A program made the translations under genes and the position numbers. DNA of 64,000 bases. It comes from an uncultured bacterium. Its GTDB lineage: Bacteria; Fidelibacterota; Marinisomatia; Marinisomatales; TCS56. How positions within the stretch are numbered: the first letter of the stretch is position 1; the number at the start of each line of letters is the position of its first letter. Under the pieces are notes generated by a model. It had not been told where the DNA came from. It did not search any database and saw nothing but the letters and a program-made list of their open reading frames with translations. Below are positions 31,156-58,603 of the stretch, one piece after another. Where the stretch lies: assembly GCA_964439935.1 (NCBI GenBank), contig CAYTPW010000003.1, positions 16,743-80,742 of the forward strand. Reading direction: 5' to 3'.

Positions 31156-31266
31156 ATAGGCACCGGAAAAGACTTTGAATCAACAGTAAAACTGATTAAA
31201 ATCGCCCCTGTCGGGATTTGAGCCATATTGCTCCGACGTTAAATAATGCAGCTAAAAAGGCCAACC

Positions 31267-31291
31267 AGCCGGTTTTAGCGCCGGCTTTTTT
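31267..31291 (+). promoter_or_regulatory. GC hairpin plus U-tract ending 4 nt before the metH ATG (terminator of the upstream gene and/or attenuator/RBS-masking element)
   Basis: AGCCGG (31267-31272) pairs with CCGGCT (31281-31286), followed by TTTTTATT. No purine-rich SD lies between the hairpin and the ATG at 31295. Confidence 0.4.
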
Positions 31292-34987: not shown

Positions 34988-35009
34988 AACAAATTACAAT
35001 GGTAAAATT

Positions 35010-35954: not shown

Positions 35955-36004
35955 AGGTATGAACCAGCAAGAAATAATATGAATAATGAAACTAAGGAGT
36001 TATT

Positions 36005-37180: not shown

Positions 37181-37194
37181 AATTGGAATAAAAT

Positions 37195-41775: not shown

Positions 41776-43247
41776 TGAGCACTAAAATTATCAGGCTGCT
41801 TGCCGTTGGGTGCATTGTCTCCATTTCTCTGTTTGGTCAATCAAAGCGCGATCCCCGGGCAGTCGGGTTGGCCGGATCCTACGGTTCGGTAGCCGATGGT
41901 ATCTTTGCAGTTGGATACAATCCAGCCCTGATTGCGCTGCAGCAGGATAAACCGTTCATGCTCCAACTGTTTGGTATGGATTTCGGCATGGTCAGCAATT
42001 ATATCTCACTGGCGAATCTGAACGAAATCAGCGGTGACACATTAAGCGATGATGATACCGATTTAATTCTCCGTGAACTCGACCGCAGCGGAGGATTGCG
42101 TCTCTTCACAGACATGCATTTACCGATTCCGGTTCTGAATTTTGCCTCGGGCAATATGGCTTTAACCTCTAACATGATCGTGCTGGGCGATATTACTATT
42201 CCCACCGGGATAATGGGTATTTTACTTAAAGGCAACGGTGAATATTTGTCTGAAGAAGTAGACATGACCCTGGAATTGGACCTGCTTGGTGTCAATGAAT
42301 TTGGTTTCACTTTTGCCATTCCCAGTACCGATTTTGCCTGGGGTATGACTCTTAAATACCTCCAGGGAATGTTTTATTTTGGCATCGATCCGGACTCGAG
42401 CTCTGCCTTCATGATTACCGACACAACTGCGCTGTACGGCAGCGGGACCTATTATTTCAGGCAAGGTATAGGTGGCAGCGGTCTGGGACTGGACCTGGGA
42501 TTCACAACCCGCGATTTGGATGGCTGGCGGATCGGTATATCGATGATCAATGCAATCGGACGGATTAACTGGAATCGCCCCAGTTTCATTAAGGATATTA
42601 TGGATGGCAGCGATAACCGCTATGGAAATTCTGATGATCTGTTTCATTTATCCTGGGGCGGAACTGCCTTAAACGACAGCAATGCTGTACGCTATATTTA
42701 TACAATCGATTCCCTTAACGCCCAGTCAATGGCCAGCGATTCTTTGTTCTATTCCAATCCAACTGATGAACAGGTGGTCTACGATTTAACGGCTGATGGG
42801 GAGATTAAACGGTTTAGTACCCGCTATCCGGCGTTGTTTCGCGTTTCTGTATCCAAGCGTTTCCCGGATGTACTGGTGGTATCAGATCTTGTAGCTGGGT
42901 TTGAGGATCGTTTCTTTGCCCGGGATCGCTGGCGTTGGTCAATAGGGGCAGAATTAGTACGCAATCCTGGAATACCGATCAGGTTCGGTTATTCCTGGGC
43001 CGGTTATGATTTCAAAGAGTTGGGGATGGGGTTTGGTATACATAAGGGACCGGTCATTTTTGACTTTGGGCTGGCATTCAGAAATGGTGTCTGGATCCAT
43101 TCCATGAAGGGAGTGAATATATCACTGGGTGTAACCATTACCAGTTTTAAAAGTCGCCGAGAAACACCGCCGGAACCGGGCGTGGATGAGGATTCTATCA
43201 TCCTGCCACCTGATGATACTCCAGATGAGGAGGGGAGTCCGAACTGA
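41772..43247 (+). CDS. outer-membrane beta-barrel protein (FadL/PorV/TraF-like N-terminal motif) with acidic Pro-rich C-terminal tail
   Basis: Signal peptide, then PRAVGLAGSYGSVADGIFAVGYNPALIA (the A.G.GGA....D....YNPA motif of this barrel superfamily). Alternating amphipathic strands follow. The last 35 aa, RRETPPEPGVDEDSIILPPDDTPDEEGSPN, are non-barrel. Confidence 0.65.
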   Translation: MMSTKIIRLLAVGCIVSISLFGQSKRDPRAVGLAGSYGSVADGIFAVGYNPALIALQQDKPFMLQLFGMDFGMVSNYISLANLNEISGDTLSDDDTDLILRELDRSGGLRLFTDMHLPIPVLNFASGNMALTSNMIVLGDITIPTGIMGILLKGNGEYLSEEVDMTLELDLLGVNEFGFTFAIPSTDFAWGMTLKYLQGMFYFGIDPDSSSAFMITDTTALYGSGTYYFRQGIGGSGLGLDLGFTTRDLDGWRIGISMINAIGRINWNRPSFIKDIMDGSDNRYGNSDDLFHLSWGGTALNDSNAVRYIYTIDSLNAQSMASDSLFYSNPTDEQVVYDLTADGEIKRFSTRYPALFRVSVSKRFPDVLVVSDLVAGFEDRFFARDRWRWSIGAELVRNPGIPIRFGYSWAGYDFKELGMGFGIHKGPVIFDFGLAFRNGVWIHSMKGVNISLGVTITSFKSRRETPPEPGVDEDSIILPPDDTPDEEGSPN

Positions 43248-44336
43248 TTACTTTCTAACGCCGAGCAGTAATAAAATCCCACCGATTGAAAAAATGAAAT
43301 TACCGATCCAAGCAGCGTAGATTGGTTCAATTATTCCCTTATAGCCCATTGATTGGCCGAATTTTATAAACGCGTAATATGAAAATATCACCAGGACGCT
43401 CAAACCGGCGCCAAATGACAGTCCACCTTTTGGTTTTAATAATACCAATGGTAGTCCGAACAGGACCACAATAAGATTAGTAAAGGCAAAAGAAATTTTA
43501 AAGTCCCGTACGACCTCCCAACGGGTCGTGTCGACCCCATTCTCATCCAGTTGTGCGATAAACTGTTTAAGATCTGCGTAATTCAATTCTTCCGGTGATG
43601 ATGACTTGCGTTCCACATCTTCTGGGATGAAACCCAGGTATAAAAGAGTATCAAGCTCACTTATACGGACATCTTCTTCCTCACCGGCTGAATTAAAATT
43701 CCTGATAGAGTACCGGTCAGCCGCCCAAAATTCCAGAGAGTCTACCCAGGTAATTTTCTGTATATCGATGCGTTCAGTAATCTGGCCCTGATCCATGATT
43801 TGAACCGTAACACCATCAGCTGTCTTTTTGTTGAAATTATATTTACCGATTGCAATATGGTATTTTTCGGATCGTTGCAGAAATATATTGGTTTTGACAT
43901 TCTTATTCCGTCGTTTGTATTTCTGTATATATTCCTTTTTCAATTCTGCCCGATTGACGTTGCCCCAGATTACCAACTGATCCTCAAATTCAAAAGATAC
44001 CAGACTGATAAAGAAACCCAGGATTATCAGGGGAACCGCTATACGGTAGACGCTTATCCCGGTTGCTTTCATTGCAGTAAGTTCGTTGCGTTTGGCGGTT
44101 AACCCGATCGAAAATACCGTAGCGATCAGCATTGCCATTGGCAGACCGATATTAAAGAACCAGGGCAGGGAATAATAATAATAACGCAAAATGACCGGAA
44201 ATGGGACGGCGCTGTCAATAAATTTGTCTAATTGTTCGAATATGTCGACAATAATAAAAACACAGATAAAACCGGTCAATGCCATCACGAGAATGGTCAA
44301 GAACTGTCGTGCCAGGTAAATATCAAGCTTTTTCAT
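43248..44336 (-). CDS. LptF/LptG-family LPS export permease
   Basis: MKKLDIYLARQFLTILVMALTGFICVFIIVDIFEQLDKFID is the YjgP/YjgQ N-terminus. Six hydrophobic helices flank a periplasmic middle domain. Confidence 0.85.
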   Translation of the reverse strand: MKKLDIYLARQFLTILVMALTGFICVFIIVDIFEQLDKFIDSAVPFPVILRYYYYSLPWFFNIGLPMAMLIATVFSIGLTAKRNELTAMKATGISVYRIAVPLIILGFFISLVSFEFEDQLVIWGNVNRAELKKEYIQKYKRRNKNVKTNIFLQRSEKYHIAIGKYNFNKKTADGVTVQIMDQGQITERIDIQKITWVDSLEFWAADRYSIRNFNSAGEEEDVRISELDTLLYLGFIPEDVERKSSSPEELNYADLKQFIAQLDENGVDTTRWEVVRDFKISFAFTNLIVVLFGLPLVLLKPKGGLSFGAGLSVLVIFSYYAFIKFGQSMGYKGIIEPIYAAWIGNFIFSIGGILLLLGVRK

Positions 44337-44624: not shown

Positions 44625-44903
44625 TTTCAATCAGATATTCAAGTTTTCCATTACTTTATTCAGCCGATTGTGATCATAGGAGACTACCAGTATGAATTTC
44701 GGCAAATTGATACCATGCATCACCGTTATCAAGGTTGGGGTGATCAGGCCTTTGTTATTCAAAATCAGGACAATGAGAAAATTACATAATTAACCTTTGC
44801 CCAGAATGCAGTTACTTTTCACAGATTACCTCTTTGGTTGCATACTCCTCTCGATGAGTTATTACCAGAGAAACAATCGGAACTGAATTAGGAGGGAAGA
44901 CCA

Positions 44904-47900
44904 ATGAAATCATTCTTTAGATTTTTTGCCGAGCGTCATATGCTGGCGACTATGATCACATTAATGATACTATTGTTAGGACTGAATACCCTCAGGCACA
45001 TTAAACGGGACAGTTATCCAAATGCCAGCTTTGGTGTAATGATGGTCAGCACCCGTTATCCAGGCGCTTCACCGGAGGATGTTGAACTCAATGTTACTAA
45101 TAAAATTGAGGATGAGCTAAAAAGCGTAAACGGCATCAAAAAAATGACTTCATTTTCCATGGAGAATATGTCATTCATCAATGTCCAGCTTGATATTGAC
45201 GAAGAGGATCAGGATCAAATCAAAAACGAAATCAGGGAAGCTGTTGCCAAGGTATCTGATTTACCGATGGAAGTACCTGAATCTCCGCAGGTAATAGAAA
45301 TAAAAAATACCCTTATACCCATCATTGAGGTTGGGCTAACCGGAGATGTTCCATATAAAGAATTAAGAGAACGTGCCCGAATACTCGATAAAAAACTGAA
45401 GGCTCTGCCGGGTGTTTCTCAAGTTGAGAAATATGGTTACCGCGCCCGCGAGATTCAGGTGGATGTGTCATCGGATGCTGTTGAGCAGTATCAGATACCA
45501 ATGGGGGAAATTATAGCTGCGATCCAAAAGCGAAATGTTCGGGGGACTTCCGGTTCTTTTGAATCCTATACTAGCGAAAAAGATATTGTAACATTAGCCC
45601 AATTCCGTGATCCCATGGAGGTCGGTGAAGTGATTGTACGATCCACGTTCGAAGGTGTGGAAGTGAAAATAACAGATTTAGCTGTTGTCAAGGATGGCTT
45701 CGAAGATGAACGTGTTCTTTCACGTATTGGTGGCGAACCTGCAATCTCACTAATCGCCTATAAAAGCGAGTCAGCTGATGTTATCAGAACTTGCGATGCC
45801 ATCAAAGCATTGGTAACCAATGAAAGTGTTAACCTACCCGAGGATATTAAAATCGTCTATGCCAACGATATGGATCGGTATGTCAAAAACAGGTTCAATG
45901 TTGTCCTTAATAATGGTGCCATCGGGTTTCTCCTATTACTGGTAGTACTGCCTTTCTTTCTTAGTTTGCGTCTCTCTTTCTGGGTGGCGATGGGAATCCC
46001 GGTAGCTTTGTTGGGTACGATTTTCCTGCTACCAACCTTTGGTGTCTATTTAGATAGCCTCACCCTGATGGGAATTCTATTAGTACTTGGAATTATAGTT
46101 GATGATGCAATTATCATCGGTGAGAATATTGCCAGTCACCGGGAGAAAGGCAAATCACCGTTGGATGCCGCGGTCGATGGCATTCATGAGGTATTCCTTC
46201 CGGTTATCACTACCGTTCTGACAACTTTTCTGGTATTTGCACCCATGTTTTTCCTGAAGGGGATGATGGGAAATTTCATTTTTGTAATTCCTTTGGCAAT
46301 CAGTTTAGCATTGTTTATTTCGCTTGCTGAAGGATTGATTGCTCTGCCGGCGCATCTGGCGGGTGGTATGAGCAAGCATGCCGCCGGCAAAGAAGGCAAG
46401 CACTGGTTTCACGTTATCAGTGATTGGTACCGGCAGATAATGAAGCATGTACTCAGATTGCGTTATGTTTTGATTCCGATTTTTGTCATTCTGCTGATCA
46501 CGGCATTCTGGTTCGCCGGCACTCATTTGAAATTCGTGCTGTTCCCATCAGAAATGTCAGACCGCTTTTATGCTTTTGTTACTACGCCAACCGGGACTTC
46601 CCTGCAAAAGACGTCTGAAAAAGTTACCGAGATTGAAAGCCTGATAAATGAAATTTCAGATGAGGAGATGGCTTCATACGTTACACGGATCGGACTTAAA
46701 GTTCTCGAGGGCAGCTTTGTTTCGATGGAAACTGAAAACGCTGCCCAGATGACAGTTGACCTCACGCCCTATACTAAGCGAGACAGAACCGCGCATGAGA
46801 TCGTAGATGAGTTACGTGAAAAGTCCGCTAAGCTCAAAGGTTTCGATGAAATTAATTACCTGGTTGCCGAGGGTGGACCTCCGGTAGGAAGAGATGTTGA
46901 ATTACGCGTGGTCGGTGCTGATGATGAAATGCGCAGTCAATTGGCTGAAGCAGTAACAACTATGATGTCCACAATTGACGGAGTCAGTAGTATCACACGC
47001 GATGATACACCGGGCAAAGACCAGGTGGAAATCAAGATCGATTACAGCAATCTGGCCCGGTTGGGACTGACCGTGGCTGACATTGCTCAGAATGTCCGCA
47101 TCGCCTATGATGGCCAGGTTGTGACCAGTATGCGTTCCGGTGATGAGGATGTGAATCTGCGGGTCATGCTTCAGGAAAGTGCCCGTGAAGGTGCGGAACA
47201 ATTGAGTGAATTAAAGATACCAAATCGTCAGGGCCGTTTAATACCACTGAATGAAGTCGCTTCCCTCAAACCCGGCCCAGGACCGTCGGATTACCGGCAT
47301 ATAGGTGGTGAACGTACAATCACGGTTGAAGCCAATGTTGACAATGCTCTCACCACTCCACTGGCAGTAACTAATACCGTTATCAGTAATTTTAACCTGG
47401 ATAAAGATTGGCCCGGGATGCGATTCATCGTTGGCGGAGAAGCCCAGGAAACTGCAGAATCGATGGCCGGTCTTTTCAGCGCACTGCTGATGGCTATCAT
47501 TGGTATCTATTTCCTGCTGGTACTATTGTTTAATTCTCTGACCCAGCCATTCCTGGTAATGGCAGCAATTCCATTCGGCATCACCGGTGTCATCTTTGCC
47601 TTCGGATTTCATGGCCAGGCATTTGGATTCTTCTCCTTTCTGGGGATCATCGGACTCTCCGGAGTTGTCGTAAATGATTCACTGGTCCTGATCAATCATG
47701 TTAATGACTTGAGACTCGCAAATCCTAAGCGCTCGATAATGGACATCGTAGCCGAAGGAACAGCCAACCGCATGCGCGCCATTGTCATGACTACCGTGAC
47801 AACCGTTGCAGCCCTGCTGCCACTAGCTTACGGGTTGGGTGGTATTGATTCCTGGATGGCTCCGATGGCGCTAGCCCTGGGTTGGGGATTACTTTTTGCT

Positions 47901-47999
47901 ACACCACTAACGCTGGTTCTGGTTCCCTGTATGTTTATTGTCGGACAGGATTTACGAGGAGTCAGACTGAAAATACAAGGGATTTTCAGGAGAAAATAA
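44904..47999 (+). CDS. RND-superfamily efflux permease (AcrB-like), copy 1
   Basis: RBS AGGAGGG. 1031 aa, with 12-TM plus two large periplasmic loops. Typical blocks: RYPGASPEDVE, GIIVDDAIIIGENI, VVNDSLVLINHVN. Confidence 0.92.
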   Translation: MKSFFRFFAERHMLATMITLMILLLGLNTLRHIKRDSYPNASFGVMMVSTRYPGASPEDVELNVTNKIEDELKSVNGIKKMTSFSMENMSFINVQLDIDEEDQDQIKNEIREAVAKVSDLPMEVPESPQVIEIKNTLIPIIEVGLTGDVPYKELRERARILDKKLKALPGVSQVEKYGYRAREIQVDVSSDAVEQYQIPMGEIIAAIQKRNVRGTSGSFESYTSEKDIVTLAQFRDPMEVGEVIVRSTFEGVEVKITDLAVVKDGFEDERVLSRIGGEPAISLIAYKSESADVIRTCDAIKALVTNESVNLPEDIKIVYANDMDRYVKNRFNVVLNNGAIGFLLLLVVLPFFLSLRLSFWVAMGIPVALLGTIFLLPTFGVYLDSLTLMGILLVLGIIVDDAIIIGENIASHREKGKSPLDAAVDGIHEVFLPVITTVLTTFLVFAPMFFLKGMMGNFIFVIPLAISLALFISLAEGLIALPAHLAGGMSKHAAGKEGKHWFHVISDWYRQIMKHVLRLRYVLIPIFVILLITAFWFAGTHLKFVLFPSEMSDRFYAFVTTPTGTSLQKTSEKVTEIESLINEISDEEMASYVTRIGLKVLEGSFVSMETENAAQMTVDLTPYTKRDRTAHEIVDELREKSAKLKGFDEINYLVAEGGPPVGRDVELRVVGADDEMRSQLAEAVTTMMSTIDGVSSITRDDTPGKDQVEIKIDYSNLARLGLTVADIAQNVRIAYDGQVVTSMRSGDEDVNLRVMLQESAREGAEQLSELKIPNRQGRLIPLNEVASLKPGPGPSDYRHIGGERTITVEANVDNALTTPLAVTNTVISNFNLDKDWPGMRFIVGGEAQETAESMAGLFSALLMAIIGIYFLLVLLFNSLTQPFLVMAAIPFGITGVIFAFGFHGQAFGFFSFLGIIGLSGVVVNDSLVLINHVNDLRLANPKRSIMDIVAEGTANRMRAIVMTTVTTVAALLPLAYGLGGIDSWMAPMALALGWGLLFATPLTLVLVPCMFIVGQDLRGVRLKIQGIFRRK

Positions 48000-48033
48000 T
48001 CTGCCTAGAATAAATCGAGATACCGAGAAAAAT

Positions 48034-48753
48034 ATGCCCACTGGTAATCGATGGATAAAATGGATAGTTGAATACCGGTTCGTCTTCATTGTCTGTTTTC
48101 TGGTACTCCAGAATATTGCATATGTGACATACAGTACATTGGATCTGGCCGGAGTAGATCTCTTCGGCAGTGCCATGGGAATACTAGTATTTGCTTTTTG
48201 TATCCTGGCAGTCAGCAAGGACAAAAAATCACTGAGAATCGGTATTATCTGGGGTATTCTAGCAATCATATCCGCTTGGGTACTCATACTGTCTAATTTC
48301 CTGTATTGGCTTTTTATGCCTATTTACCTGTCGTTTTATGTATATACAACCGTAGTAATAATCTATAATGTGGCAAAAAGTAAAGAGATAAATCTAAATA
48401 TTATTTTTGGATCCATTGCCGGTTTTCTCTTGATCAGTTCATTAGGTTCTGCGATATGCACCGTTATCGAGACTTTCTATCCTGGATCGTTTAATATGAC
48501 GGGGGGTATTGAAAATCCAATCAACACGTTTTTTTATTTCACAATTATAACTATGACATCCCTGGGATATGGAGACATCACACCTGCCACGGATATTACC
48601 AGATCGGTTGCTGTCTACCTGGTATTGATAGGACAATTGTATCTGGTTATATTAGTAGCAATCCTGGTTGGTAAATTTATTACTCGCTCAATTGATACTG
48701 ATGATGAGATCGCTAAATTGAAAAGGGAAATACAATTATTGAAGAAAGGTTGA
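48034..48753 (+). CDS. 6-TM potassium channel (pore-loop TSLGYGD), no RCK or charged S4
   Basis: Selectivity filter TMTSLGYGD (TSLGYGD encoded at 48556-48576). Five preceding hydrophobic helices and one following. Short coiled C-terminus. Confidence 0.85.
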   Translation: MPTGNRWIKWIVEYRFVFIVCFLVLQNIAYVTYSTLDLAGVDLFGSAMGILVFAFCILAVSKDKKSLRIGIIWGILAIISAWVLILSNFLYWLFMPIYLSFYVYTTVVIIYNVAKSKEINLNIIFGSIAGFLLISSLGSAICTVIETFYPGSFNMTGGIENPINTFFYFTIITMTSLGYGDITPATDITRSVAVYLVLIGQLYLVILVAILVGKFITRSIDTDDEIAKLKREIQLLKKG

Positions 48754-48859
48754 AAATCAATGTGTTGGATCGTATCATCTGTTTGGCTACGACTAAGTAC
48801 TTTGAATTCCGGATTACTACCAATAATTCCAAAGAATATTCTAACTGGAGAACTTTGAG

Positions 48860-51800
48860 ATGAAATCACTTTTCCGCTTTTTCGCTGAGCGCCATATGCT
48901 GGCTTACATAATCACGATACTGATTCTGCTGCTGGGATTGAGTACGCTGATCGATATTAAGCGTGATGTGTATCCGGCCGTTGACTTTGGTATGGTGCGA
49001 ATCCTGACCCGTTATCCTGGTGCTTCACCGGAGGATGTTGAGTTAAACGTCACCAATAGGATTGAAAAAGAAATCCAGACCGTTACCGGGATTGCAGGCT
49101 TTTCCTCGGTGTCAATGGAAAATGTTTCCGTAATCTATGTATCAATTGATATCGATGCCAAAGATCTGGATAAGGTAAAAAACGAGATCCGGGAAGCGGT
49201 TGGCAGTGTTACTGATTTCCCCCCGGAAGTAACCGAGTCCCCGGCAATTTGGGAAATGACGCACCAATCGGCCAATCATGTTATCGAGGTTGGTGTGACC
49301 GGTCAATTACCGTATAATGAGATGCGTAATTATGCCCACCTGGTTGAAAAGAAATTGAAAAAAGTATCCGGTGTATCGAAACTGGAGAAAGTTGGGTACC
49401 ATGCCCGCGAAATTGAAGTGGAAATTATTCCGGACAAAATAAATGCCTATCAGATTCCAATTCGTGAGATTATCGCAGCTATTCAAAGCAGAAATATAAG
49501 GGGCACCACCGGGTCATTTGAGTCATATACCAGCGAAAAGGATTTGGTCACGCTGGCACAATTTGATGATCCCATGGAAGTCGGTGATGTAATCGTAAGA
49601 TCCACATTTGATGGCCCGGTCATCAAGGTTAAAGATCTGGCAATTATTAAGGATGATTTTGCCGATGTGCGGTTGTTGTCACGGGTGAATGGGAAAGCGG
49701 CGATTTCTTTCCGGGTATTCATGACCGAATCAGCTGATGTAATCCGTACTTGTGATGCTGTTAAAGAATTGATTCAGAAAGAGAATGAGACCGCTCCCGC
49801 AGGTATTGAAATCATGTATTCCAATGATAGCTCTCATTATATTAAGAATAGTTTTGATGTAGTCTTAAATAATGGTTGGATGGGCTTGGTATTAGTTGTG
49901 GTTTTATTACCGATATTTCTGAATTTTCGTACGTCTTTCTGGGTGGCAATGGGAATTCCTATTACATTTTTAGGTACCATTTTTTTGCTGCCATCTTTCA
50001 ATGGTTACTTGGATACAATCACCCTGTCCGGGATGATATTGGTCATTGGCATAATCGTTGATGATGCAATAATCATCGCTGAGAATATTTCCAAGCGACG
50101 CGAACAGGGAGACGATCCAATAGATGCTGCCGTAAATGGCTTAAATGAAGTATTCAAACCGGTTGTAACGACGGTTTTTACTACCTTTTTAGTTTTCGCA
50201 CCGATGTTTTTTATGCCTGGAGTTTTTGGGAAATATATAATTCCAATTCCACTGGCATTAAGCATAGCATTATTTGTTTCGCTAATTGAATCGGTTTTTG
50301 TTTTACCTGCTCACTTGGCACATGGAATGAAAAAAAGAGCGGTCAAGTCAACCGGCAGAAACTGGTTTCGAAAATTGAGCGGTAAATATCAGAAAATTAT
50401 GCCACGGATCCTGAAATTACGCTATGCTTTTGTTGTAGTATTCATAGTATTTCTGGTTGGTTCATTTTGGTACGCCGGTAAATATATGAAAATGATAATG
50501 TTTCCTTCCGGTATGGCCCGCGAATTTTATGTAATGGTAGAATTACCGGTCGGGACTCCGTTATTGACAACATCTGATAAAGTCAAGGAGCTCGAAGAAC
50601 TGGTTGCGGAACTTCCGAGGGAGGAATTGGCATCGTTCAACACCTGGATTGGAACCAATGTTCAGGTGGGGGTCGAAAGTGAGAATTTTGCGGCAACGGC
50701 TGTTTTACTTACTGACTATACTGATCGAGAACGAAGTGCTGAAGAAATTGTAGATGCATTGAGATTAAAAACAGACCAGCTGGAAGGATTTACTCAAATA
50801 GCCTATTCTATTTCCAGTGGTGGCCCACCGGTCGGTAAACCGATCAGTTTGCGTATCACCGGTTCTGATGACGAATTACGCACTGCCTTAACAGACAGTG
50901 TGGAAGCTTTCCTGGGCACAATTAGCGGAGTAAAGGATATCAGCCGCGATGACATCAGCGGCAAGGATCAGGTTAAAATTGATATCGATTATGACCGTCT
51001 GGCCCGGCTGGGTCTCACTGTAGCCGATGTGGCGGTGAATGTTCGTTTGGCCTACGATGGTGAAGTGGTTACCAGCGTCCGCTATGGTGATGAAGATGTT
51101 GCCTTCCGCGTTATCGTTGAAGAAGAATCCCGCCAGCGCCTCAGTTTTTTGGATGAGATTCTGATTCCCAATCGCCAGGGACGTTTGATACCTTTGAAGG
51201 AGATTGCCAGCCTGGAACCTGGTCCGGGTAAATCTGATTTTAGGCACTATGACGGTGATCGATCGGTAACCATCGAAGCCGATGTAGATCAGGAAACTAT
51301 CACCCCACTCGAAGTGAATAACGCCGTTTTTGCACATTTCGATGTTGATCGCGACTGGCCTGGTATTCAATTGGGAGTTGGTGGAGAAGTCTTCGAAACC
51401 GAAAAATCGATGGCCGGACTATTCAGGACGATGATAATCGCTTTACTCGGCGTCTTTTTCCTGCTGATCCTGTTATTCAACTCCCTTACCCAACCTTTCC
51501 TGGTAATGATGGCCATTCCGTTTGGAATTACCGGTGTAATAATTGCCTTTGCCCTGCATGGTGAACCATTCAGCTTCATGGGTATTATGGGAATTATTGG
51601 CCTGTCTGGAGTTGTGGTAAATGATTCCCTGGTTTTAGTAAGTCATGTCAATGATCTTAAACGGGAGCGGCGAGGTGTCGATATCCGGGATATAATTTCC
51701 GAAGGCACAGCCGACCGACTTCGGGCGATTATAATGACCACCTTAACTACTGTGGCAGCCTTATTACCACTGGCTTATGGTATTGGCGGAAACGCGCTGT

Positions 51801-51928
51801 TCATGGCGCCAATGGCATTGTCGCTGGGTTGGGGTTTATTATTTGCAACTCCGCTTACTTTGGTACTGTTGCCCTGCATGTATATGATCGGGCAGGATAT
51901 TCACAGATTATTCAATAGAAAAAAATAG
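48860..51928 (+). CDS. RND-superfamily efflux permease (AcrB-like), copy 2, paralog of 44904..47999
   Basis: 1022 aa. Collinear with copy 1 from MKS(F/L)FRFFAERHMLA to the C-terminus. Shares RYPGASPEDVELNVTN, GIIVDDAIII and VVNDSLVL. Confidence 0.92.
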   Translation: MKSLFRFFAERHMLAYIITILILLLGLSTLIDIKRDVYPAVDFGMVRILTRYPGASPEDVELNVTNRIEKEIQTVTGIAGFSSVSMENVSVIYVSIDIDAKDLDKVKNEIREAVGSVTDFPPEVTESPAIWEMTHQSANHVIEVGVTGQLPYNEMRNYAHLVEKKLKKVSGVSKLEKVGYHAREIEVEIIPDKINAYQIPIREIIAAIQSRNIRGTTGSFESYTSEKDLVTLAQFDDPMEVGDVIVRSTFDGPVIKVKDLAIIKDDFADVRLLSRVNGKAAISFRVFMTESADVIRTCDAVKELIQKENETAPAGIEIMYSNDSSHYIKNSFDVVLNNGWMGLVLVVVLLPIFLNFRTSFWVAMGIPITFLGTIFLLPSFNGYLDTITLSGMILVIGIIVDDAIIIAENISKRREQGDDPIDAAVNGLNEVFKPVVTTVFTTFLVFAPMFFMPGVFGKYIIPIPLALSIALFVSLIESVFVLPAHLAHGMKKRAVKSTGRNWFRKLSGKYQKIMPRILKLRYAFVVVFIVFLVGSFWYAGKYMKMIMFPSGMAREFYVMVELPVGTPLLTTSDKVKELEELVAELPREELASFNTWIGTNVQVGVESENFAATAVLLTDYTDRERSAEEIVDALRLKTDQLEGFTQIAYSISSGGPPVGKPISLRITGSDDELRTALTDSVEAFLGTISGVKDISRDDISGKDQVKIDIDYDRLARLGLTVADVAVNVRLAYDGEVVTSVRYGDEDVAFRVIVEEESRQRLSFLDEILIPNRQGRLIPLKEIASLEPGPGKSDFRHYDGDRSVTIEADVDQETITPLEVNNAVFAHFDVDRDWPGIQLGVGGEVFETEKSMAGLFRTMIIALLGVFFLLILLFNSLTQPFLVMMAIPFGITGVIIAFALHGEPFSFMGIMGIIGLSGVVVNDSLVLVSHVNDLKRERRGVDIRDIISEGTADRLRAIIMTTLTTVAALLPLAYGIGGNALFMAPMALSLGWGLLFATPLTLVLLPCMYMIGQDIHRLFNRKK

Positions 51929-51958
51929 TGAGATACTATAGAGCAAAGGACCAATATA

Positions 51959-52879
51959 ATGGATAAAAATACTCTAGTTGAATTAAACATCCGAAAGTAT
52001 GTTACAATTATCTTGTTTACTGGATTGATTACGACAGGACTTGCTCAGCAGGTGGTGGGATTATCAGTCGGTTATAATGAATTCCCCTTTGTAAGACTTG
52101 CCGATCCTGTTTCTGGGGCTGAGGATATGGAGATTCAGACGCAGGTCAAAACGGTTGGTGCCGCATTCCCATTGATGTTTCAGGATGGGAAAATCATGAT
52201 TCTAAATCAACTGAGTTACCGGAATGTGGCATTTCAATACAAAAACCTTGGTTCGGAAGCTGATATTGCATATAATTTAGATCGTGCTATCTCAATTAAT
52301 TACACCGCCTTTATGCTGGATTCACTGTCAGAAAAGTGGACGATGGTGGCTGTACTCATTCCAGGATTGGCGTCTGATTTTAAAGCCGATAAGCTAACTG
52401 GTGATGATTTTACCCTGCAGGCTATTTTCGGATATATCCGAAAATACAGCAAACAATTTCAACTGGGGCTTGGCTTAGCATACATGCGTGATTTTGGCCG
52501 ACCGTTACCAATGCCATTCATTTATTTTGACTGGAATAATGGCGCTAAACTCAGTGCAAGTGGTCTGGTCCCTATGGACATGACAGCAGTATACAAATTG
52601 CATCCTATGATTGATTTAATGTTGGCGTTTAGAGTTTTTGGAGACCGACATCACGGTGATCCAGATATATTCAGTGTTGATAACCCACAATTGGAATATT
52701 CGGAAGGTACTTTAAGTCCCAGTGTCAATATCCACGTGAAACAATGGCTGCATATTGGTTTTGAAGCCGGCTATGCGGCCTATAGAAATTTACGGTTTCT
52801 TGATGGTGATGAAGAAGCTGGTTCGTACGATTTGGAAAAAACCGCCTATTATCGTGTAAATCTAGTATTGGGAATCTGA
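51959..52879 (+). CDS. putative outer-membrane beta-barrel protein
   Basis: Signal-like N-terminus ...TGLAQQ. Alternating aromatic/aliphatic strand pattern throughout (LGLGLAYMRDF, LMLAFRVFG, YYRVNLVLGI). No family named with certainty. Confidence 0.5.
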   Translation: MDKNTLVELNIRKYVTIILFTGLITTGLAQQVVGLSVGYNEFPFVRLADPVSGAEDMEIQTQVKTVGAAFPLMFQDGKIMILNQLSYRNVAFQYKNLGSEADIAYNLDRAISINYTAFMLDSLSEKWTMVAVLIPGLASDFKADKLTGDDFTLQAIFGYIRKYSKQFQLGLGLAYMRDFGRPLPMPFIYFDWNNGAKLSASGLVPMDMTAVYKLHPMIDLMLAFRVFGDRHHGDPDIFSVDNPQLEYSEGTLSPSVNIHVKQWLHIGFEAGYAAYRNLRFLDGDEEAGSYDLEKTAYYRVNLVLGI

Positions 52880-52907
52880 TTTTGAATGCTGTGAAGGTCG
52901 ATGATAT

Positions 52908-52936
52908 TTGACTTGGTACTACTTCATAAATAAATA
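52908..52936 (+). promoter_or_regulatory. candidate sigma70-like promoter, would give a near-leaderless transcript
   Basis: TTGACT (52908-52913), 17-nt spacer, TAAATA (52931-52936). The ATG lies at 52946. Pattern match only. Confidence 0.3.
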
Positions 52937-52945
52937 TATCGCACG

Positions 52946-55393
52946 ATGTTTGACAAATATATTAAAATCCTGAGTGTTCTAATATTTAGTACAATGCTGT
53001 TTTCACAGTTTGTGGCCGCTGAAAACGAACGGCCGAAGATTGGCTTGGTATTATCGGGTGGGGGTGCGCGCGGATTAGCCCATGTGGGAATCCTGAACAT
53101 GATCGATTCGCTTAAAATCCCGATCGATTTTGTCGTTGGAACTAGCATGGGCGGCATTGCCGGTGCCCTGTACGCTATTGGGTACAGTGGCAAAGAGATT
53201 GAAGAACTGGCCCTTCGCAATGATTGGTTGGAATTATTTTCTGATGTACCTCCCCGGGATATGTTGCCCTATATCGAGAAAAAGGATGATGGGAAATTCC
53301 AGTTGGAATTTGATGTGGTTGACTATCGACCGGTTCCACCCAGTGGCCTGATTCGTGGCCAGAAAATCTCGCTGCAGTTTTCAAAATTGACCTATGCCTA
53401 TGAACATATTGCCGATTTCGATCAATTTCCAATTCCATACCGTTGTGTGGCGGTGGATCTTATTACCGGCGCTGAAATCGTGATTAAGAGTGGATCCCTG
53501 GCGAAAGCCATGCGATCGACAATGTCGATTCCGACCATATTTAATCCGGTTGACTGGGGCGAACATATGCTGATTGACGGCGGTTTATTAAATAATCTGC
53601 CAATCGATGTGGCTGTGGAAATGGGTGCCGATTATATAATCGCCGTTAATGTCGGACGGCCCAAGCGGCAACGCCATGAATTAAAGACTTTACTGGAAAT
53701 TTTGGAACAAACAATTGCAATCCCGGAATACATCCGCGAGGAAGAAAATGCACCGCTGGCCGACATACTGATTACTCCCCAGTTAGAGGATTTGAGCCCG
53801 GCTGATTTCAGCAGAAAAAATATCAGTGAAGTCGTTCATCGAGGTAAAATAAGTGCTAAGGCTAATCTTGATAAATTGATCGAATTGAAAAATAAATTGA
53901 CAGCAATTGAGTCCGAAGCTAGTACTTCTTCGCCTGATTCAAGCCCTAGAATTTATGGTGTTACAATTGGTGGAAATACCTCCTTACCATTTGCTTATAT
54001 TTATGATTTATTGAATGTCAAACCCGGTGACCAATTCGATCTCATATCTATTGAGAATCGTGTTCAAGAGATGTATAAAACTGGCTATTTTGAAAAAATC
54101 AATTATGAAGCGCAGCCAGTTGATTTAAATTTTGTGCGCCTTTTCTTTCGTATAAAAGAGCAGCAAAAACCGGTCATTCATGGAATTACGATCTCTGGAA
54201 ATGAGCTATTGTCATTCAATTTTATATACTCATTATTGGGAATCGCTCCCCTTGATTTGTTTGATACGGAAGTCGTGGAAAAACGGATTACCGAATTGTA
54301 CAGTCTGGGATATTTTGAAACGATCAATTATGAAATAGAATCCGTCTCTAAGGACAGCATTCGTTTAAACATTAATGTTCATGAACGATCGTACAACCGT
54401 CTGCGTCTAGGCTTGCGTTATGATCGCAATGTCAATCTGGTGGGTATAATCGGTTTTTTTGGTAATAATATTTTTTTTCCGGGGCTGCGGCTGGAGCAAA
54501 CTATACAATTTGCTGGCTTATCTAAGTGGAATACCAAACTGTATTTTCCATCCCGTACACTCGATCTGGCAGTTTATCCCTTTATTCGATTCGAGTATGT
54601 TGATGAGCCAGTTAATATCTTCAGTCAAGGACAGCAAATTGCTTTATACAAAGCGCAGTCAACCACCGGGGGTGCTGGTCTTGGATTTTTACCTCTGAAA
54701 TCCTGGAATACCGAAATTGAATATATCCAGGAACACGTTGATGTTTTTCCTGCGATTGGGGAAAGTGATTCTCTGCCAGTCTGGGATGAAAAAAATCGGA
54801 GATTGAATCTAAAAGCCCAAATTGACTGGCTCGACGATGTTTTAATTCCGCGAAAAGGATTTCTATTGAATTTGGGCTATGAATACACTCCACAAGGAAT
54901 TGGATCAGAAATAATCTACCGCAAGGAAGAAATAGCGCTGGACATTTATTATACAATAAATAAGAGACATACTTTCAGGTTACTGACACAATATGGATAT
55001 TATCATGGCAATTTTTTCAATCTTTATAAATGGTTTTATTTTGGTGGTCCACAGGATTTTGTAGGTATTGACTATAATGAATTTGCTTACTACCGGTCGT
55101 CATTTTATCGTTTCGATTACCGGTATCAGGGAGCGAATCCATTCTTCTTAAAATTCATTTTCAACTTCGCGCCCAATTACGATGGTGAATTTTATCCATT
55201 AGAAATAGATAGGAAATTTGATACTGGCTACATTTGGTTTGACAGAGGTTTGATCGGTTATGGAATTGGATTTATTATACTGACACCAATCGGTCCATTG
55301 GAAATGATCTATAGTCGCGGGAGCGAGATTATATCTGAATCCAAAAACGCCATGCAAAACCACTTATATTTCACTTTCGGATATAAGTTTTAA
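52946..55393 (+). CDS. patatin-like phospholipase fused to POTRA repeats and an Omp85-type beta-barrel (PlpD/type Vd-like architecture)
   Basis: Signal peptide. Patatin motifs GGGARG, GTSMGG and IDGG. Two POTRA-like units (IYGVTIGGNTSLPFAYIYDLLNVKPGDQFD...YFEKINYE; IHGITISGNELLSFNFIYSLLGIAPLDLFD...YFETINYE). C-terminal barrel ending in the OMP signature YFTFGYKF. Confidence 0.85.
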   Translation: MFDKYIKILSVLIFSTMLFSQFVAAENERPKIGLVLSGGGARGLAHVGILNMIDSLKIPIDFVVGTSMGGIAGALYAIGYSGKEIEELALRNDWLELFSDVPPRDMLPYIEKKDDGKFQLEFDVVDYRPVPPSGLIRGQKISLQFSKLTYAYEHIADFDQFPIPYRCVAVDLITGAEIVIKSGSLAKAMRSTMSIPTIFNPVDWGEHMLIDGGLLNNLPIDVAVEMGADYIIAVNVGRPKRQRHELKTLLEILEQTIAIPEYIREEENAPLADILITPQLEDLSPADFSRKNISEVVHRGKISAKANLDKLIELKNKLTAIESEASTSSPDSSPRIYGVTIGGNTSLPFAYIYDLLNVKPGDQFDLISIENRVQEMYKTGYFEKINYEAQPVDLNFVRLFFRIKEQQKPVIHGITISGNELLSFNFIYSLLGIAPLDLFDTEVVEKRITELYSLGYFETINYEIESVSKDSIRLNINVHERSYNRLRLGLRYDRNVNLVGIIGFFGNNIFFPGLRLEQTIQFAGLSKWNTKLYFPSRTLDLAVYPFIRFEYVDEPVNIFSQGQQIALYKAQSTTGGAGLGFLPLKSWNTEIEYIQEHVDVFPAIGESDSLPVWDEKNRRLNLKAQIDWLDDVLIPRKGFLLNLGYEYTPQGIGSEIIYRKEEIALDIYYTINKRHTFRLLTQYGYYHGNFFNLYKWFYFGGPQDFVGIDYNEFAYYRSSFYRFDYRYQGANPFFLKFIFNFAPNYDGEFYPLEIDRKFDTGYIWFDRGLIGYGIGFIILTPIGPLEMIYSRGSEIISESKNAMQNHLYFTFGYKF

Positions 55394-56299
55394 TTAAACT
55401 TCGAATATACTCCGCTTATATCCCGCCAGTAATATCCAGTCTCCCGAAGATTCTTGTTCGAATCCGGTGAAATATTTCTGATAGACTTGCTTTGTCCGGT
55501 CCGATTGGGTATGTAAGATTCCTGACAAAGCAATTTTACCTCCATCGTTCAGTAGCTCGGAAAATATATGCACCATTTCAAGTAGTGGATTTGCCAGGAT
55601 ATTAGCAACGATCAGATCGAATTTATCAGGTAGCAATTCTTCTGGCAGACCGGTTGGAAAACAGACCTGATTGATCGAAGCATTCTCCAACGCTGCGGCA
55701 TTTGCTTGGGGATCGATATCCACGCCGACGGCCTCTGCGGCACCAAGTTTCAGGGCGGCAATTCCCAGAATACCCGATCCACAACCATAATCGAGGACCT
55801 GCTCACCACCGCTGATTTCCTGGTCCAGCCACTGCAGGCATAATCTGGTAGTGGGGTGAGTACCGCTACCAAAAGCAATCCCCGGATCAAAACGCAAATT
55901 GATTGCCTTCGGGTCCACAATCGATTCCCAGGTTGGGATGATCCACAACCGGTCTGATATTTTCAATGGCTGGGACAGACTGCGGGAACGTTTGACCCAA
56001 TCCCGCTCAGGAATTTGTTCAATTTTGTATTTGAGTTTACTGGGTATTTTGAAATGCAGTCTAACTTTTTCCACTAACAGATCAATTTCTGAATCAAGTG
56101 GCAGCATAGCTGTTACAGATGCTGTATCAGGGATTAGTACTTCCGGTAAACTGGGATCATCAAGCCATTCTTGCTCAGGATGACTATCAAGATCATTATT
56201 AAGGATAGCAACAGATAGCACATTTTGTTCGATCAGAAAATTTGCCAGTTGCCGGGGTGGTAATCCCTGACATTCGAAAATCAAATTGAGCCAGCCCAA
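55394..56299 (-). CDS. prmA: ribosomal protein L11 methyltransferase
   Basis: TTG start giving (M)GWLNLIFE. FGSGTHPTT and the SAM motif LDYGCGSGILGIAALKLGA. Confidence 0.88.
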   Translation of the reverse strand: MGWLNLIFECQGLPPRQLANFLIEQNVLSVAILNNDLDSHPEQEWLDDPSLPEVLIPDTASVTAMLPLDSEIDLLVEKVRLHFKIPSKLKYKIEQIPERDWVKRSRSLSQPLKISDRLWIIPTWESIVDPKAINLRFDPGIAFGSGTHPTTRLCLQWLDQEISGGEQVLDYGCGSGILGIAALKLGAAEAVGVDIDPQANAAALENASINQVCFPTGLPEELLPDKFDLIVANILANPLLEMVHIFSELLNDGGKIALSGILHTQSDRTKQVYQKYFTGFEQESSGDWILLAGYKRSIFEV

Positions 56300-58380: not shown

Positions 58381-58603
58381 CCTATTTCTGTACAATGAAG
58401 TTTCATGGTTGTAAACGACAGGGCTTCGTAACTTAAGACTATAGAGTAATAAAAGCGTTTATGTGGTTGCCGTTGCGAGGTTTAGTGTCTGATTAATAGA
58501 TTTACCTATTAAGTTAGCTTTTAGCCGCGTGGTTGCACCGCTAGGTAACAGTGTTACATAGACTCATGAGCCTAAAATCCAAATATGATATGAGGTTTTA
58601 AGA

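What the first reader, a model, noticed from the sequence alone, without database searches (positions are those of the whole stretch)
44904..55393. Adaptor-less duplicated RND permeases flanking a K+ channel, followed by an OM barrel and a patatin-POTRA-Omp85 protein
Five same-strand genes lie in a row: RND permease, 6-TM K+ channel, paralogous RND permease, a 306-aa putative OM barrel, and an 815-aa patatin-Omp85 fusion.

Canonical tripartite efflux operons encode a membrane-fusion adaptor and usually a TolC-like channel. Neither is present here or in the flanks. Upstream lies a 567-nt gap and then lptF/G on the other strand.

RND members that work without adaptors are typically lipid or envelope-component exporters of the HpnN/MmpL/SecDF type. 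Together with a lipase-barrel fusion and an extra OM barrel, this raises the possibility of an outer-membrane lipid-handling or remodelling locus rather than drug efflux.
Basis: partly seen in the sequence, partly recalled or inferred. Interest (0 to 1): 0.6.

Follow-up and report, generated by a model that had tools for sequence, protein, structure and literature searches.

The report
Mosaic efflux-pump locus with decayed TolC gene
The five genes are real, but they are two AcrB-type efflux pumps from a little-studied bacterial clade that normally sit beside a TolC-like outer-membrane channel gene (here reduced to a broken stub), joined to a potassium channel, an outer-membrane barrel and a known type of membrane-bound phospholipase, rather than a demonstrated lipid-export machine.

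Summary
All five same-strand ORFs sit at the stated coordinates and the domain calls hold. They are two RND permeases (59% identical), a GYGD K+ channel, a DUF6268 outer-membrane barrel (AF2 pLDDT 85) and a patatin-POTRA-Omp85 protein. No intact MFP or OMF gene lies in the 64 kb window.

Three corrections apply.
1. The "567-nt gap" holds the last ~77 codons of a TolC-like OMF gene (44658-44891, with an in-frame TAA). The closest relative's locus keeps an intact OMF in the order OMF-RND-RND-DUF6268-patatin/Omp85.
2. The pumps are AcrB-type, not HpnN/MmpL/SecDF-type. They align full-length to MexK/MexB/AcrB, the Foldseek TM-score is 0.72, and HAE3 scores only 19-34 bits.
3. The 815-aa protein belongs to the PlpD family (E 3.5e-66).

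The pumps belong to a distinct clade of the FCB bacterial group. Its OMF-linked subclade never has an adjacent MFP (0/27 readable loci, OMF in 22/27). A sister subclade has MFP-RND and no OMF. All 91 members replace AcrB K940-N941 with N-D.

The cluster is a mosaic of modules:
- RND1 with the K+ channel (2 loci).
- RND2 with DUF6268 (recurrent).
- The PlpD-like gene, linked only in close relatives.

The lipid-remodelling reading is weakly supported and not excluded. Whether an MFP is truly dispensable could not be tested here.

The parts
44658..44891 (+). Relic (pseudogene fragment) of a TolC-like outer-membrane factor gene. Only the last ~77 codons remain, with an in-frame TAA at 44787-44789 and the original TAG stop at 44889-44891. 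An AGGAGGG Shine-Dalgarno-like motif for RND1 follows.
   Evidence: tblastn of five OEP-positive OMFs from orthologous loci gives E 4e-12 to 3e-8 and 40-57% identity to their C-termini. The sequence was read directly. Locus L007 carries the same fragment as an intact 81-aa ORF.
44904..47999 (+). RND1: an AcrB-architecture RND permease of an FCB-specific clade ('RND1-type'). Its orthologs in L014 and L007 are 69-70% identical.
   Evidence: PF00873 scores 590 bits over residues 4-1013. phmmer against PDB gives MexK 262 bits, with MexB and AcrB aligned full-length. The AF2 model matches AcrB at Foldseek TM 0.72.
48034..48753 (+). Small K+ channel with about 6 TM segments, a GYGD filter and no ligand-binding or voltage-sensor signature.
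   Evidence: PF07885 gives 38 bits. GYGD sits at residue 178 and hydropathy shows the segments. The pore resembles SthK/Kv. A 36%-identical channel follows the RND1-type pump in L014.
48860..51928 (+). RND2: the paralogous permease ('RND2-type'). It is 88% identical to the second pump of L011 and 73% identical to the second pump of the Fidelibacterota locus L001.
Evidence: PF00873 scores 582 bits.
51959..52879 (+). DUF6268 outer-membrane beta-barrel of roughly 14 strands with a signal peptide. It is a recurrent accessory gene of this pump subclade.
   Evidence: PF19783 scores 71 bits. The AF2 model has pLDDT 85.3 and is all-beta. Foldseek matches only generic OM barrels at TM <=0.53. The gene is adjacent to the RND in L002, L009, L011, L014, L015, L022 and the P0160 locus.
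52946..55393 (+). PlpD-family patatin-POTRA-Omp85 protein (PL-Omp85, 'type Vd') with intact catalytic motifs GGGARG38, GTSMG65 and DGG211.
   Evidence: Pfam finds Patatin, POTRA and Omp85. The PlpD patatin domain 5fqu matches at E 3.5e-66. Orthologs in L011/L012 sit in the same position.
43248..44336 (-). LptF/LptG-family permease, divergently oriented. It marks the upstream boundary and is not part of the unit.
   Evidence: PF03739 scores 252 bits. TIGR04408 (LptG) scores 188 bits, below its cutoff of 240.
55394..56299 (-). prmA (ribosomal protein L11 methyltransferase), convergent with the cluster. It marks the downstream boundary.
   Evidence: TIGR00406 scores 216 bits, above its cutoff.

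Best explanation
The cluster is a mosaic envelope locus built around two paralogous pumps. Both belong to an uncharacterised RND clade of the FCB bacterial group (seen in Fidelibacterota/Marinimicrobia, Zixibacteria, KSB1, Cloacimonetes, WOR-3, Eisenibacteria and Bacteroidota-like bins).

The pumps have AcrB architecture, with 12 TM helices and porter plus docking subdomains. In their subclade they are normally encoded directly downstream of a divergent TolC-like OMF. I therefore infer that they are trans-envelope efflux pumps that dock to an OMF, not inner-membrane-only lipid flippases.

In this genome the cis OMF was deleted down to a 77-codon stub, so any OMF must be supplied in trans. No MFP is adjacent anywhere in the subclade. 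The adaptor is either encoded elsewhere or not needed. One possible source is the sister 'MFP-RND' loci, which lack an OMF.

The locus was assembled from modules of different evolutionary depth:
- [delta-OMF]-RND1-K+ channel.
- RND2-DUF6268 barrel.
- A PlpD-type periplasm-facing phospholipase, joined only in this lineage.

Shown: gene content, homologies, the relic, the synteny pattern and the altered ion-relay residues (K940N/N941D). Inferred: OMF dependence, supply of partners in trans, co-transcription, and any substrate.
For: - Architecture. Both pumps match PF00873 full-length, and RND1 aligns full-length to MexK/MexB/AcrB. All AcrB subdomains, including DN and DC, are present at AcrB-like lengths. 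The AF2 model matches AcrB, CmeB, OqxB and AdeB at TM 0.70-0.73.
- OMF linkage. Proteins of ~480 aa upstream of the pumps pass the Pfam OEP gathering threshold at 62-74 bits. An OMF lies upstream in 22 of 27 readable Group A loci. The closest relative L011 reads OMF-RND-RND-DUF6268-PL-Omp85.
- Relic. Window 44658-44891 matches the OMF C-terminus and carries an in-frame stop.
- MFP pattern. MFP is adjacent in 0 of 27 Group A loci, while the sister Group B has TIGR01730-positive MFPs (166-173 bits) upstream.
- Modularity. RND2 is 88% identical to the second pump of L011, while RND1 groups with L014 and L007 and not with L011's first pump. L014 reads RND2-type-DUF6268-RND1-type-K+ channel. PL-Omp85 orthologs at 54-55% identity lie in unrelated contexts.
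- Both pumps retain the family's invariant columns. Both gaps are short and lack terminator-like sites.
Against: - No whole-genome census of MFP or OMF genes was possible, so supply in trans is an assumption.
- OMF dependence is inferred from gene neighbourhood only.
- Three RND1-type loci (window, L007, L014) all lack an intact OMF. RND1-type pumps may therefore have become OMF-independent.
- The OMFs are divergent. They pass Pfam OEP but no NCBIfam model.
- The tree is neighbour-joining, has no bootstrap support and includes only four E. coli references.
- The tight RND2-DUF6268-PL-Omp85 spacing, conserved in L011/L012, could reflect a real functional unit.
Confidence: 0.55

Rival explanations
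1. The locus is a dedicated outer-membrane lipid-handling unit. The periplasm-facing PL-Omp85 phospholipase cleaves inner-leaflet OM phospholipids. The RND pumps remove or relocate the lipid products (lysolipids, fatty acids). The DUF6268 barrel gives them a route through or into the outer membrane. No adaptor is needed.
For: - RND2-DUF6268-PL-Omp85 is kept with 4-70 nt spacing in the closest relatives L011 and L012.
- PlpD is reported to be periplasmic, and its loss alters phospholipid levels.
- The catalytic motifs are intact.
- The best structural matches of DUF6268 include hydrophobic-compound channels (COG4313, FadL, TodX), but only at TM <=0.53.
- One related locus has a glycerophosphodiester phosphodiesterase directly after DUF6268-RND (L015).
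- No MFP is adjacent anywhere in the subclade.
Against: - PL-Omp85 linkage is confined to relatives at >=77% identity. Orthologs at 54-55% have no RND or DUF6268 neighbour.
- Most DUF6268-RND loci lack any lipase.
- The pumps are AcrB-type with docking domains and OMF partners, unlike known lipid-exporting RNDs.
- No substrate evidence exists.
Confidence: 0.18
2. The OMF-linked subclade consists of genuinely adaptor-independent two-component RND-OMF machines, with the RND docking domain engaging the OMF directly. They may be energised by Na+ or K+ rather than H+. The K+ channel would then act as an ion-balancing partner.
For: - MFP is adjacent in 0 of 27 Group A loci although an OMF is adjacent in 22 of 27. 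This reverses the usual rule that MFP and RND are the inseparable pair.
- All 91 family members have N-D in place of AcrB K940-N941. This gives a D-D (TM4) plus D (TM10) triad with no lysine. DISP1 has the same kind of triad, and there it coordinates Na+.
- TM5 and TM11 are Thr-rich.
- A K+ channel follows RND1-type pumps in two loci even though the channels are only 36% identical.
- Marine RND clades have been proposed to be Na+-linked.
Against: - Absence from the neighbourhood is not absence from the genome.
- The sister Group B shares the same N-D signature yet has a standard MFP, so the signature does not go with loss of the adaptor.
- R971 and T978 are conserved as in H+ pumps.
- The K+ channel link rests on two loci.
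- The OMFs are of ordinary length (470-503 aa), with no extension that could replace an adaptor.
Confidence: 0.15
3. The adjacency is incidental. Five envelope genes were brought together by rearrangement and have no shared function. RND1 has lost its OMF and may itself be on the way to decay.
For: - The locus is demonstrably a product of rearrangement. It holds an OMF stub, and RND1 is not orthologous to the first pump of L011.
- L102 shows DUF6268 alone beside transposase fragments.
- L007 has a solo RND1-type pump with the same OMF stub.
Against: - Both pumps are full-length and keep all family-invariant residues.
- DUF6268 is adjacent to the RND in 4 of 5 contexts sampled from the DUF6268 side, and across several phyla.
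- The RND1-K+ channel pairing survives a rearranged context.
- The gaps are short, the genes share a strand, and no terminator-like sites fall between them.
Confidence: 0.12

Closest known systems
AcrAB-TolC / MexJK / MdtABC-type tripartite RND efflux pumps (HAE-1 and allies)
   Same: The permeases have the same full-length architecture, with 12 TM helices and PN1/PN2/PC1/PC2 porter plus DN/DC docking subdomains. D407, D408, R971 and T978 are conserved. A TolC-family OMF gene is the usual neighbour. Tandem paralogous permeases recall MdtB/MdtC.
   Different: Sequence identity is only about 19-25%, and scores are far below the NCBIfam cutoffs (352-508 bits against 940-1250). K940-N941 is replaced by N-D in every member. 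No MFP gene is adjacent in the OMF-linked subclade. A DUF6268 barrel is a recurrent extra gene. In this window the OMF gene is a stub.
HpnN / MmpL / SecDF (adaptor-less RND lipid or protein exporters)
   Same: No adaptor gene is adjacent. TM10 carries an aspartate rather than a lysine, and there are weak local SecD_SecF_C and HAE3 matches in the TM bundle.
   Different: The periplasmic architecture differs: these pumps have the full AcrB-type porter and docking domains. HAE3 TIGR00921 scores only 19-34 bits, locally. Orthologous loci have OMF partners, which HpnN, MmpL and SecDF do not use.
PlpD / FplA (PL-Omp85, 'type Vd secretion')
   Same: The protein has an N-terminal patatin domain with the oxyanion, GxSxG and DGG motifs, then POTRA and an Omp85 barrel. 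The patatin domain matches PlpD at E 3.5e-66. NCBI names a Calditrichia ortholog 'PlpD'.
   Different: It is 815 aa, with two POTRA-like stretches reported by Pfam. It comes from an FCB-group bacterium and sits immediately after an RND-DUF6268 pair in this lineage only. Localisation and dimerisation are untested.
Proposed HAE-4 family (Clade H, includes Na+-dependent VexEF; ISME Commun 2024, PMC10872679)
   Same: It is a large RND clade outside HAE-1 in the strict sense, is predominantly marine or saline, and is suspected of Na+ involvement. Many relatives of the clade studied here come from marine and saline metagenomes.
   Different: Membership was not tested because no VexF or TCDB reference sequences were available. 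This is a lead from the literature only.
Dispatched / Patched (eukaryotic RND, Na+-coupled)
   Same: The charge cluster is two adjacent Asp in TM4 and one Asp in TM10 with no lysine, and TM5 and TM11 are Thr-rich.
   Different: They are very distantly related and have different extramembrane domains. The TM11 arginine of bacterial H+ pumps is retained here. Ion coupling is untested.

Membership tests
RND superfamily, AcrB/AcrD/AcrF-type (PF00873) | Full-length match to the ACR_tran profile above the gathering score | tested here: met
   The two pumps score 590 and 582 bits against a cutoff of 28, covering profile positions 1-1019 of 1021.
RND superfamily, AcrB/AcrD/AcrF-type (PF00873) | Porter (PN1, PN2, PC1, PC2) and docking (DN, DC) subdomains present | tested here: met
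   Each AcrB subdomain aligns with a segment of near-identical length, for example DN 86 against 92 and DC 89 against 89. The AF2 model matches AcrB at TM 0.72, but pLDDT is below 50 in the docking regions.
HAE-1 (TIGR00915 / NF000282 / NF033617 multidrug RND permease) | Score at or above the curated NCBIfam cutoff | tested here: not met
   TIGR00915 scores 352-371 against 940. NF033617 scores 498-508 against 1250. NF000282 scores 406-428 against 1250.
HAE-1 (AcrB-like proton relay) | D407, D408, K940, R971, T978 network | tested here: not met
   D407, D408, R971 and T978 are conserved. K940 is N and N941 is D in 91 of 91 family members. MexK and TriC have R-N, and AcrB and AdeB have K-N.
Tripartite RND efflux operon | Adjacent periplasmic adaptor (MFP) gene | tested here: not met
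   No HlyD or MFP hit in the window by Pfam (>=150-aa ORFs), phmmer (>=80-aa ORFs) or tblastn. MFP is adjacent in 0 of 27 Group A loci. The sister Group B does have an MFP.
Tripartite RND efflux operon | Cognate TolC-family OMF gene | tested here: inconclusive
   Only a 77-codon relic with an internal stop remains here. An intact OEP-positive OMF lies upstream in 22 of 27 related loci and in the closest relative. The rest of the genome could not be searched.
HAE3 / HpnN-type and SecDF (adaptor-less RND) | Family-level profile match and the corresponding smaller periplasmic architecture | tested here: not met
   TIGR00921 scores 19-34 bits against a cutoff of 352, over about 160-180 TM residues only. 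SecDF models score <=56 bits, locally. The top 50 fold matches are all AcrB-type. No HpnN or MmpL reference tree was built.
PlpD / PL-Omp85 (type Vd) | N-terminal patatin domain with GGGxR/KG, GxSxG and DGG motifs, homologous to PlpD | tested here: met
   PF01734 scores 97 bits. PlpD 5fqu matches at E 3.5e-66 over residues 28-315. The motifs sit at residues 38, 65 and 211.
PlpD / PL-Omp85 (type Vd) | POTRA domain followed by a C-terminal Omp85 barrel | tested here: met
   PF07244 scores 65 bits and PF01103 scores 43 bits (cutoff 24) over residues 564-815.
PlpD / PL-Omp85 (type Vd) | Periplasmic PL domain, homodimer, phospholipase A1 activity | not testable with these tools
   This is known for PlpD only from experiments.
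DUF6268 outer-membrane beta-barrel (PF19783) | Profile match above the gathering score, and a closed beta-barrel fold with a signal peptide | tested here: met
   The profile scores 71.3 bits against 22.8. The AF2 model has pLDDT 85.3 and about 14-15 strands spanning residues 34-305 after an N-terminal helix. The only fold matches are OM barrels.
K+ channel (Ion_trans_2, tetrameric P-loop) | Pore helix plus a GYG(D) selectivity filter between two TM helices | tested here: met
   PF07885 scores 38 bits over residues 165-213. GYGD sits at residue 178. The pore aligns to SthK and Kv channels.
HAE-4 (Clade H of PMC10872679) | Monophyly with VexF and the other Clade H TCDB references | not tested
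This is a literature lead only.

The most novel reading that the evidence does not exclude
An FCB-wide RND subclade works as an adaptor-free RND-OMF (or RND-DUF6268 barrel) machine. It would be driven through a lysine-free D-D/N-D ion site by Na+ or K+ rather than H+. In this lineage it would be coupled to a K+ channel and to a periplasm-facing PlpD-type lipase, to clear or relocate outer-membrane lipid breakdown products.
Probability: 0.1. Interest if true: 0.85.

Novelty: new variant of a known kind. Interest (0 to 1): 0.45.

Why it matters
Tripartite RND pumps are thought to need a periplasmic adaptor, and the adaptor and permease genes are normally the inseparable pair. Here a large, widely distributed but unstudied clade shows the opposite pattern. 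The OMF and RND genes are adjacent and the adaptor is never adjacent. The clade also has a rewired ion-relay site and a recurrent extra outer-membrane barrel.

If the adaptor is truly dispensable, or the coupling ion differs, current assembly and energisation models for RND efflux would need to change. If the adaptor is simply encoded elsewhere, the locus is an ordinary though poorly annotated efflux system. The lesson is then practical. The "missing" TolC in this window is a pseudogene stub that ORF-level reading cannot see.

Tried and rejected
The metagenome scan with an alignment was the productive one.
- I tested whether the 988-aa no-Pfam protein upstream (38809-41775) matches the ~960-970-aa proteins seen upstream of OMF-RND in L001, L035, L039 and L058. 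It shows no detectable homology, so the idea was rejected.
- I tested whether the ~600-aa gene upstream of Group C pumps is a novel partner. It is BipA/TypA, which is unrelated.
- Genes upstream of Group A OMFs (CorA, SDR, glycosyltransferase-like, thymidylate-synthase-like) are not conserved and are not adaptors.
- Sigma-70 promoter and terminator scans were at chance level (37 against 33, 14 against 11) and are uninformative for this phylum.
- The KSB1 389-aa Omp85-like protein hit DUF6268 seeds only weakly (27 bits) and is not counted as solid evidence.
- Literature searches found no description of DUF6268 function and no report of an MFP-less OMF-RND clade.

Full report
**Observation**

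The five + strand ORFs are exactly where the finding places them. Pfam and NCBIfam confirm each domain call.
- Both pumps match ACR_tran full-length, at 590 and 582 bits.
- The 239-aa protein matches Ion_trans_2.
- The 306-aa protein matches DUF6268 at 71 bits.
- The 815-aa protein matches Patatin, POTRA and Omp85.

The two pumps are 59% identical. The channel has a GYGD filter and about six hydrophobic segments, and no charged S4-like helix.

The intergenic gaps are 34, 106, 30 and 66 nt, and none holds a terminator-like site. The flanks are an LptF/G-family gene on the minus strand after a 567-nt gap, and a convergent prmA.

Pfam scans of the window's ORFs of 150 aa or more found no MFP or OMF family in the cluster, its immediate flanks or the rest of the window. 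phmmer on ORFs of 80 aa or more and six-frame tblastn found none either, apart from the relic described next. The window comes from a bacterium of the FCB group, shown by T9SS C-terminal sorting domains and PorV-like barrels.

**The "gap" is not empty**

I ran tblastn with the ~480-aa proteins that precede the orthologous pumps elsewhere. It matches window 44658-44867 in frame +3 to their last ~73 residues (40-57% identity, best E 4e-12).

Read directly, the frame carries TAA at 44787-44789. It runs on to the original TAG at 44889-44891, just before an AGGAGGG motif and the RND1 start codon. Those ~480-aa proteins pass the Pfam OEP (TolC-family) gathering threshold at 62-74 bits with two repeats. 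They reach no NCBIfam model.

The locus therefore once read OMF-RND1, and about 400 codons of the OMF have been deleted. A pump 70% identical to RND1 (L007) is preceded by the same fragment as an open 81-aa ORF. The loss may therefore predate the split of those lineages.

**What the pumps are**

Several lines of evidence point to AcrB-type architecture.
- RND1 aligns over residues 6-1013 to MexK (262 bits), MexB, TriC, CmeB, MdtB, ZneA and AcrB.
- NCBIfam gives 352-371 bits on HAE1 and 299-318 on HME over the full length. HAE3 scores only 19-34 bits over part of the TM bundle.
- Every AcrB porter and docking subdomain has a counterpart of nearly the same length.
- An AF2 model (pLDDT 65.5, weak in the docking regions) matches AcrB, CmeB, OqxB, AdeB and MtrD at TM 0.70-0.73. 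No HpnN- or MmpL-type entry appears in the top 50.

The analogy to HpnN, MmpL and SecDF is therefore not supported.

The pumps are also far below the curated HAE-1 cutoffs. In a neighbour-joining tree with E. coli references they form their own clade beside AcrB and MdtB/C. That tree has no bootstrap support and few references.

The clade is highly conserved across FCB phyla. Members are about 60% identical to RND1 and a 15-sequence alignment has 74% mean column identity. It carries an invariant signature. D407, D408, R971 and T978 are kept, but K940-N941 is N-D in 91 of 91 members. By contrast MexK and TriC have R-N, AcrB and AdeB have K-N, and ZneA has L-N.

**Neighbourhoods**

I analysed 80 metagenome loci plus loci fetched by exact protein look-up. 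I called ORFs, labelled them with phmmer seeds, clustered them, and checked representatives against Pfam and NCBIfam. Three subclades emerge.

| Subclade | Identity to RND1 | Loci | OMF upstream | MFP upstream |
|---|---|---|---|---|
| Group A (contains both window pumps) | about 47-70% | 40 | 22 of 27 readable | 0 of 27 |
| Group B | about 50-54% | 11 | 0 | 5 of 6 readable (8 of 11 anywhere nearby) |
| Group C (marine) | 36-40% | 28 | 0 | 0 |

- The Group B adaptors are short but bona fide. They are 257-302 aa and score 166-173 bits on TIGR01730, covering model positions 6-244 of 322.
- Group C pumps are solo and sit after bipA.

"Adaptor-less" is thus a real, subclade-wide property of the gene neighbourhood. 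However, relatives sharing the same N-D signature do use an MFP. Whether Group A genomes encode an MFP elsewhere could not be tested.

**Mosaic structure**

The closest relative, L011, has a DUF6268 83% identical to the window's. Its locus reads OMF-RND-RND-DUF6268-patatin/POTRA/Omp85.

Window RND2 is 88% identical to L011's second pump and 73% identical to the second pump of a Fidelibacterota genome. Window RND1 is not the counterpart of L011's first pump (53%). It groups instead with L014 (69%) and L007 (70%).

L014 reads RND2-type (partial)-DUF6268-RND1-type-Ion_trans_2. The two channels are only 36% identical. The RND1-channel pairing is therefore old, but it is documented in just two loci.

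DUF6268 lies next to the pump in L002 (Zixibacteria), L009 (a Cytophagia-labelled bin), L011, L014, L015, L022 and the P0160 locus. It does not in L102. That is 4 of 5 contexts sampled from the DUF6268 side and 4 of 40 from the RND side.

Its AF2 model (pLDDT 85.3) is a ~14-strand barrel with no periplasmic domain. It resembles only generic outer-membrane barrels (COG4313 channel, NanC, OmpG, FadL/TodX; TM <=0.53). It cannot bridge the periplasm as an adaptor would.

**The 815-aa protein**

Its patatin domain matches P. aeruginosa PlpD at E 3.5e-66. The GGGARG, GTSMG and DGG motifs are intact. It is a member of the PL-Omp85 ("type Vd") family.

Hanson et al. 2024 report that the PlpD lipase domain stays in the periplasm, that the protein dimerises, and that its loss raises phospholipid levels. 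They propose a role in outer-membrane lipid homeostasis.

Its linkage to the pumps is shallow, though. Orthologs at >=77% identity share the position. Orthologs at 54-55% sit among unrelated genes.

**Interpretation**

The best-supported reading is a rearranged envelope locus.
- Two AcrB-type pumps come from an uncharacterised FCB clade that is ancestrally OMF-linked.
- The cis OMF has decayed.
- The DUF6268 barrel is a recurrent accessory gene.
- The K+ channel travels with RND1-type pumps.
- A PlpD-type lipase was added in this lineage.

OMF dependence, supply of OMF and MFP in trans, co-transcription and substrates are all inferences.

The lipid-handling reading is not excluded. In its favour are the tight RND2-DUF6268-lipase spacing conserved in L011 and L012, and a GDPD gene after DUF6268-RND in L015. 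It lacks breadth.

The more radical reading is adaptor-free RND-OMF machines with a Na+ or K+ coupled, lysine-free D-D/N-D site. It draws on the reversed adjacency rule, the resemblance to the DISP1 Na+ triad, and the proposal of Na+-linked marine RND clades. It is weakened because the MFP-bearing sister group shares the signature.

**Verdict**

What remains is a moderately interesting, experimentally untouched variant of tripartite RND efflux. The open question is where, or whether, the adaptor is.

Noticed in passing
window 31200-31276 (+), with 31295-38640: A SAM-II (RF00521, SAM_alpha) riboswitch scores 42.7 bits against a gathering score of 36. It lies directly upstream of metH and is followed by MTHFR, metK and ahcY. 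This looks like a whole activated-methyl-cycle operon under one SAM riboswitch in an FCB-group bacterium.
   Followed up: partly
window 13239-17627 and 17661-22052 (+): Two tandem paralogous proteins of ~1,460 aa carry CarboxypepD_reg, FlgD_ig and T9SS Por_Secre_tail domains. One also has an InhA-like MAM domain. They are probably secreted or surface proteases and were not characterised further.
   Followed up: no
window 9493-10395 (+): A second, stand-alone patatin-like phospholipase (300 aa, PF01734 at 114 bits) lies next to dsbD and a peroxiredoxin. The genome therefore has at least two patatin genes in this 64 kb.
   Followed up: no
window 38809-41775 and 41772-43247 (+): A 988-aa protein with no Pfam or NCBIfam match overlaps by 4 nt a 491-aa DUF5723/PorV-like barrel. 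I tested whether it matches the ~960-970-aa proteins upstream of OMF-RND in other loci, and it does not.
   Followed up: partly
L037 6793-7566, L048 2393-3268, L059 5139-5903, L060 7050-7958 and others: The adaptors of the sister pump subclade are unusually short (254-302 aa). They cover only positions ~6-244 of the 322-position TIGR01730 model, so they appear to lack the C-terminal (membrane-proximal) part. These loci have no OMF.
   Followed up: partly
L064-L094 (about 28 marine metagenome loci): A deeper branch of the same pump clade (36-40% identity) sits alone directly downstream of bipA/typA. The block is rigidly conserved (685-323-205 aa genes on the opposite strand upstream, 197-204-466 aa downstream), with neither an OMF nor an MFP nearby.
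   Followed up: no
L015 6789-7496; L011 568-1221; L009 13482-14123: Lipid-related or hydrophobic-ligand genes sit next to some DUF6268-RND loci. They are a glycerophosphodiester phosphodiesterase (L015), a weak START-domain protein (L011) and an SRPBCC/polyketide-cyclase-like protein (L009). Each is seen once only.
   Followed up: no
L007 2698-2943 (also L008 734-979): The OMF C-terminal fragment survives as an intact 81-aa ORF in front of a pump 70% identical to RND1. In the window the same fragment has acquired a stop. The stub may be retained for its promoter or translation signals, or it may encode a small protein.
   Followed up: partly
RND1 residues ~433-442 and ~956-967 (window ~46200-46230 and ~47770-47805): The pump family has Thr-rich motifs in TM5 (PVxTTxxTT) and TM11 (TTxTT) that AcrB, MdtB/C and CusA lack. 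They lie next to the D-D/N-D charge cluster and may be extra cation ligands.
   Followed up: partly
window 58564-59229 (-) versus 58604-60367 (+): A 221-aa minus-strand ORF with no family match lies entirely inside the PQQ/BamB-like beta-propeller gene, in the most GC-rich segment of the window (GC 0.53). It is probably a spurious ORF.
   Followed up: no
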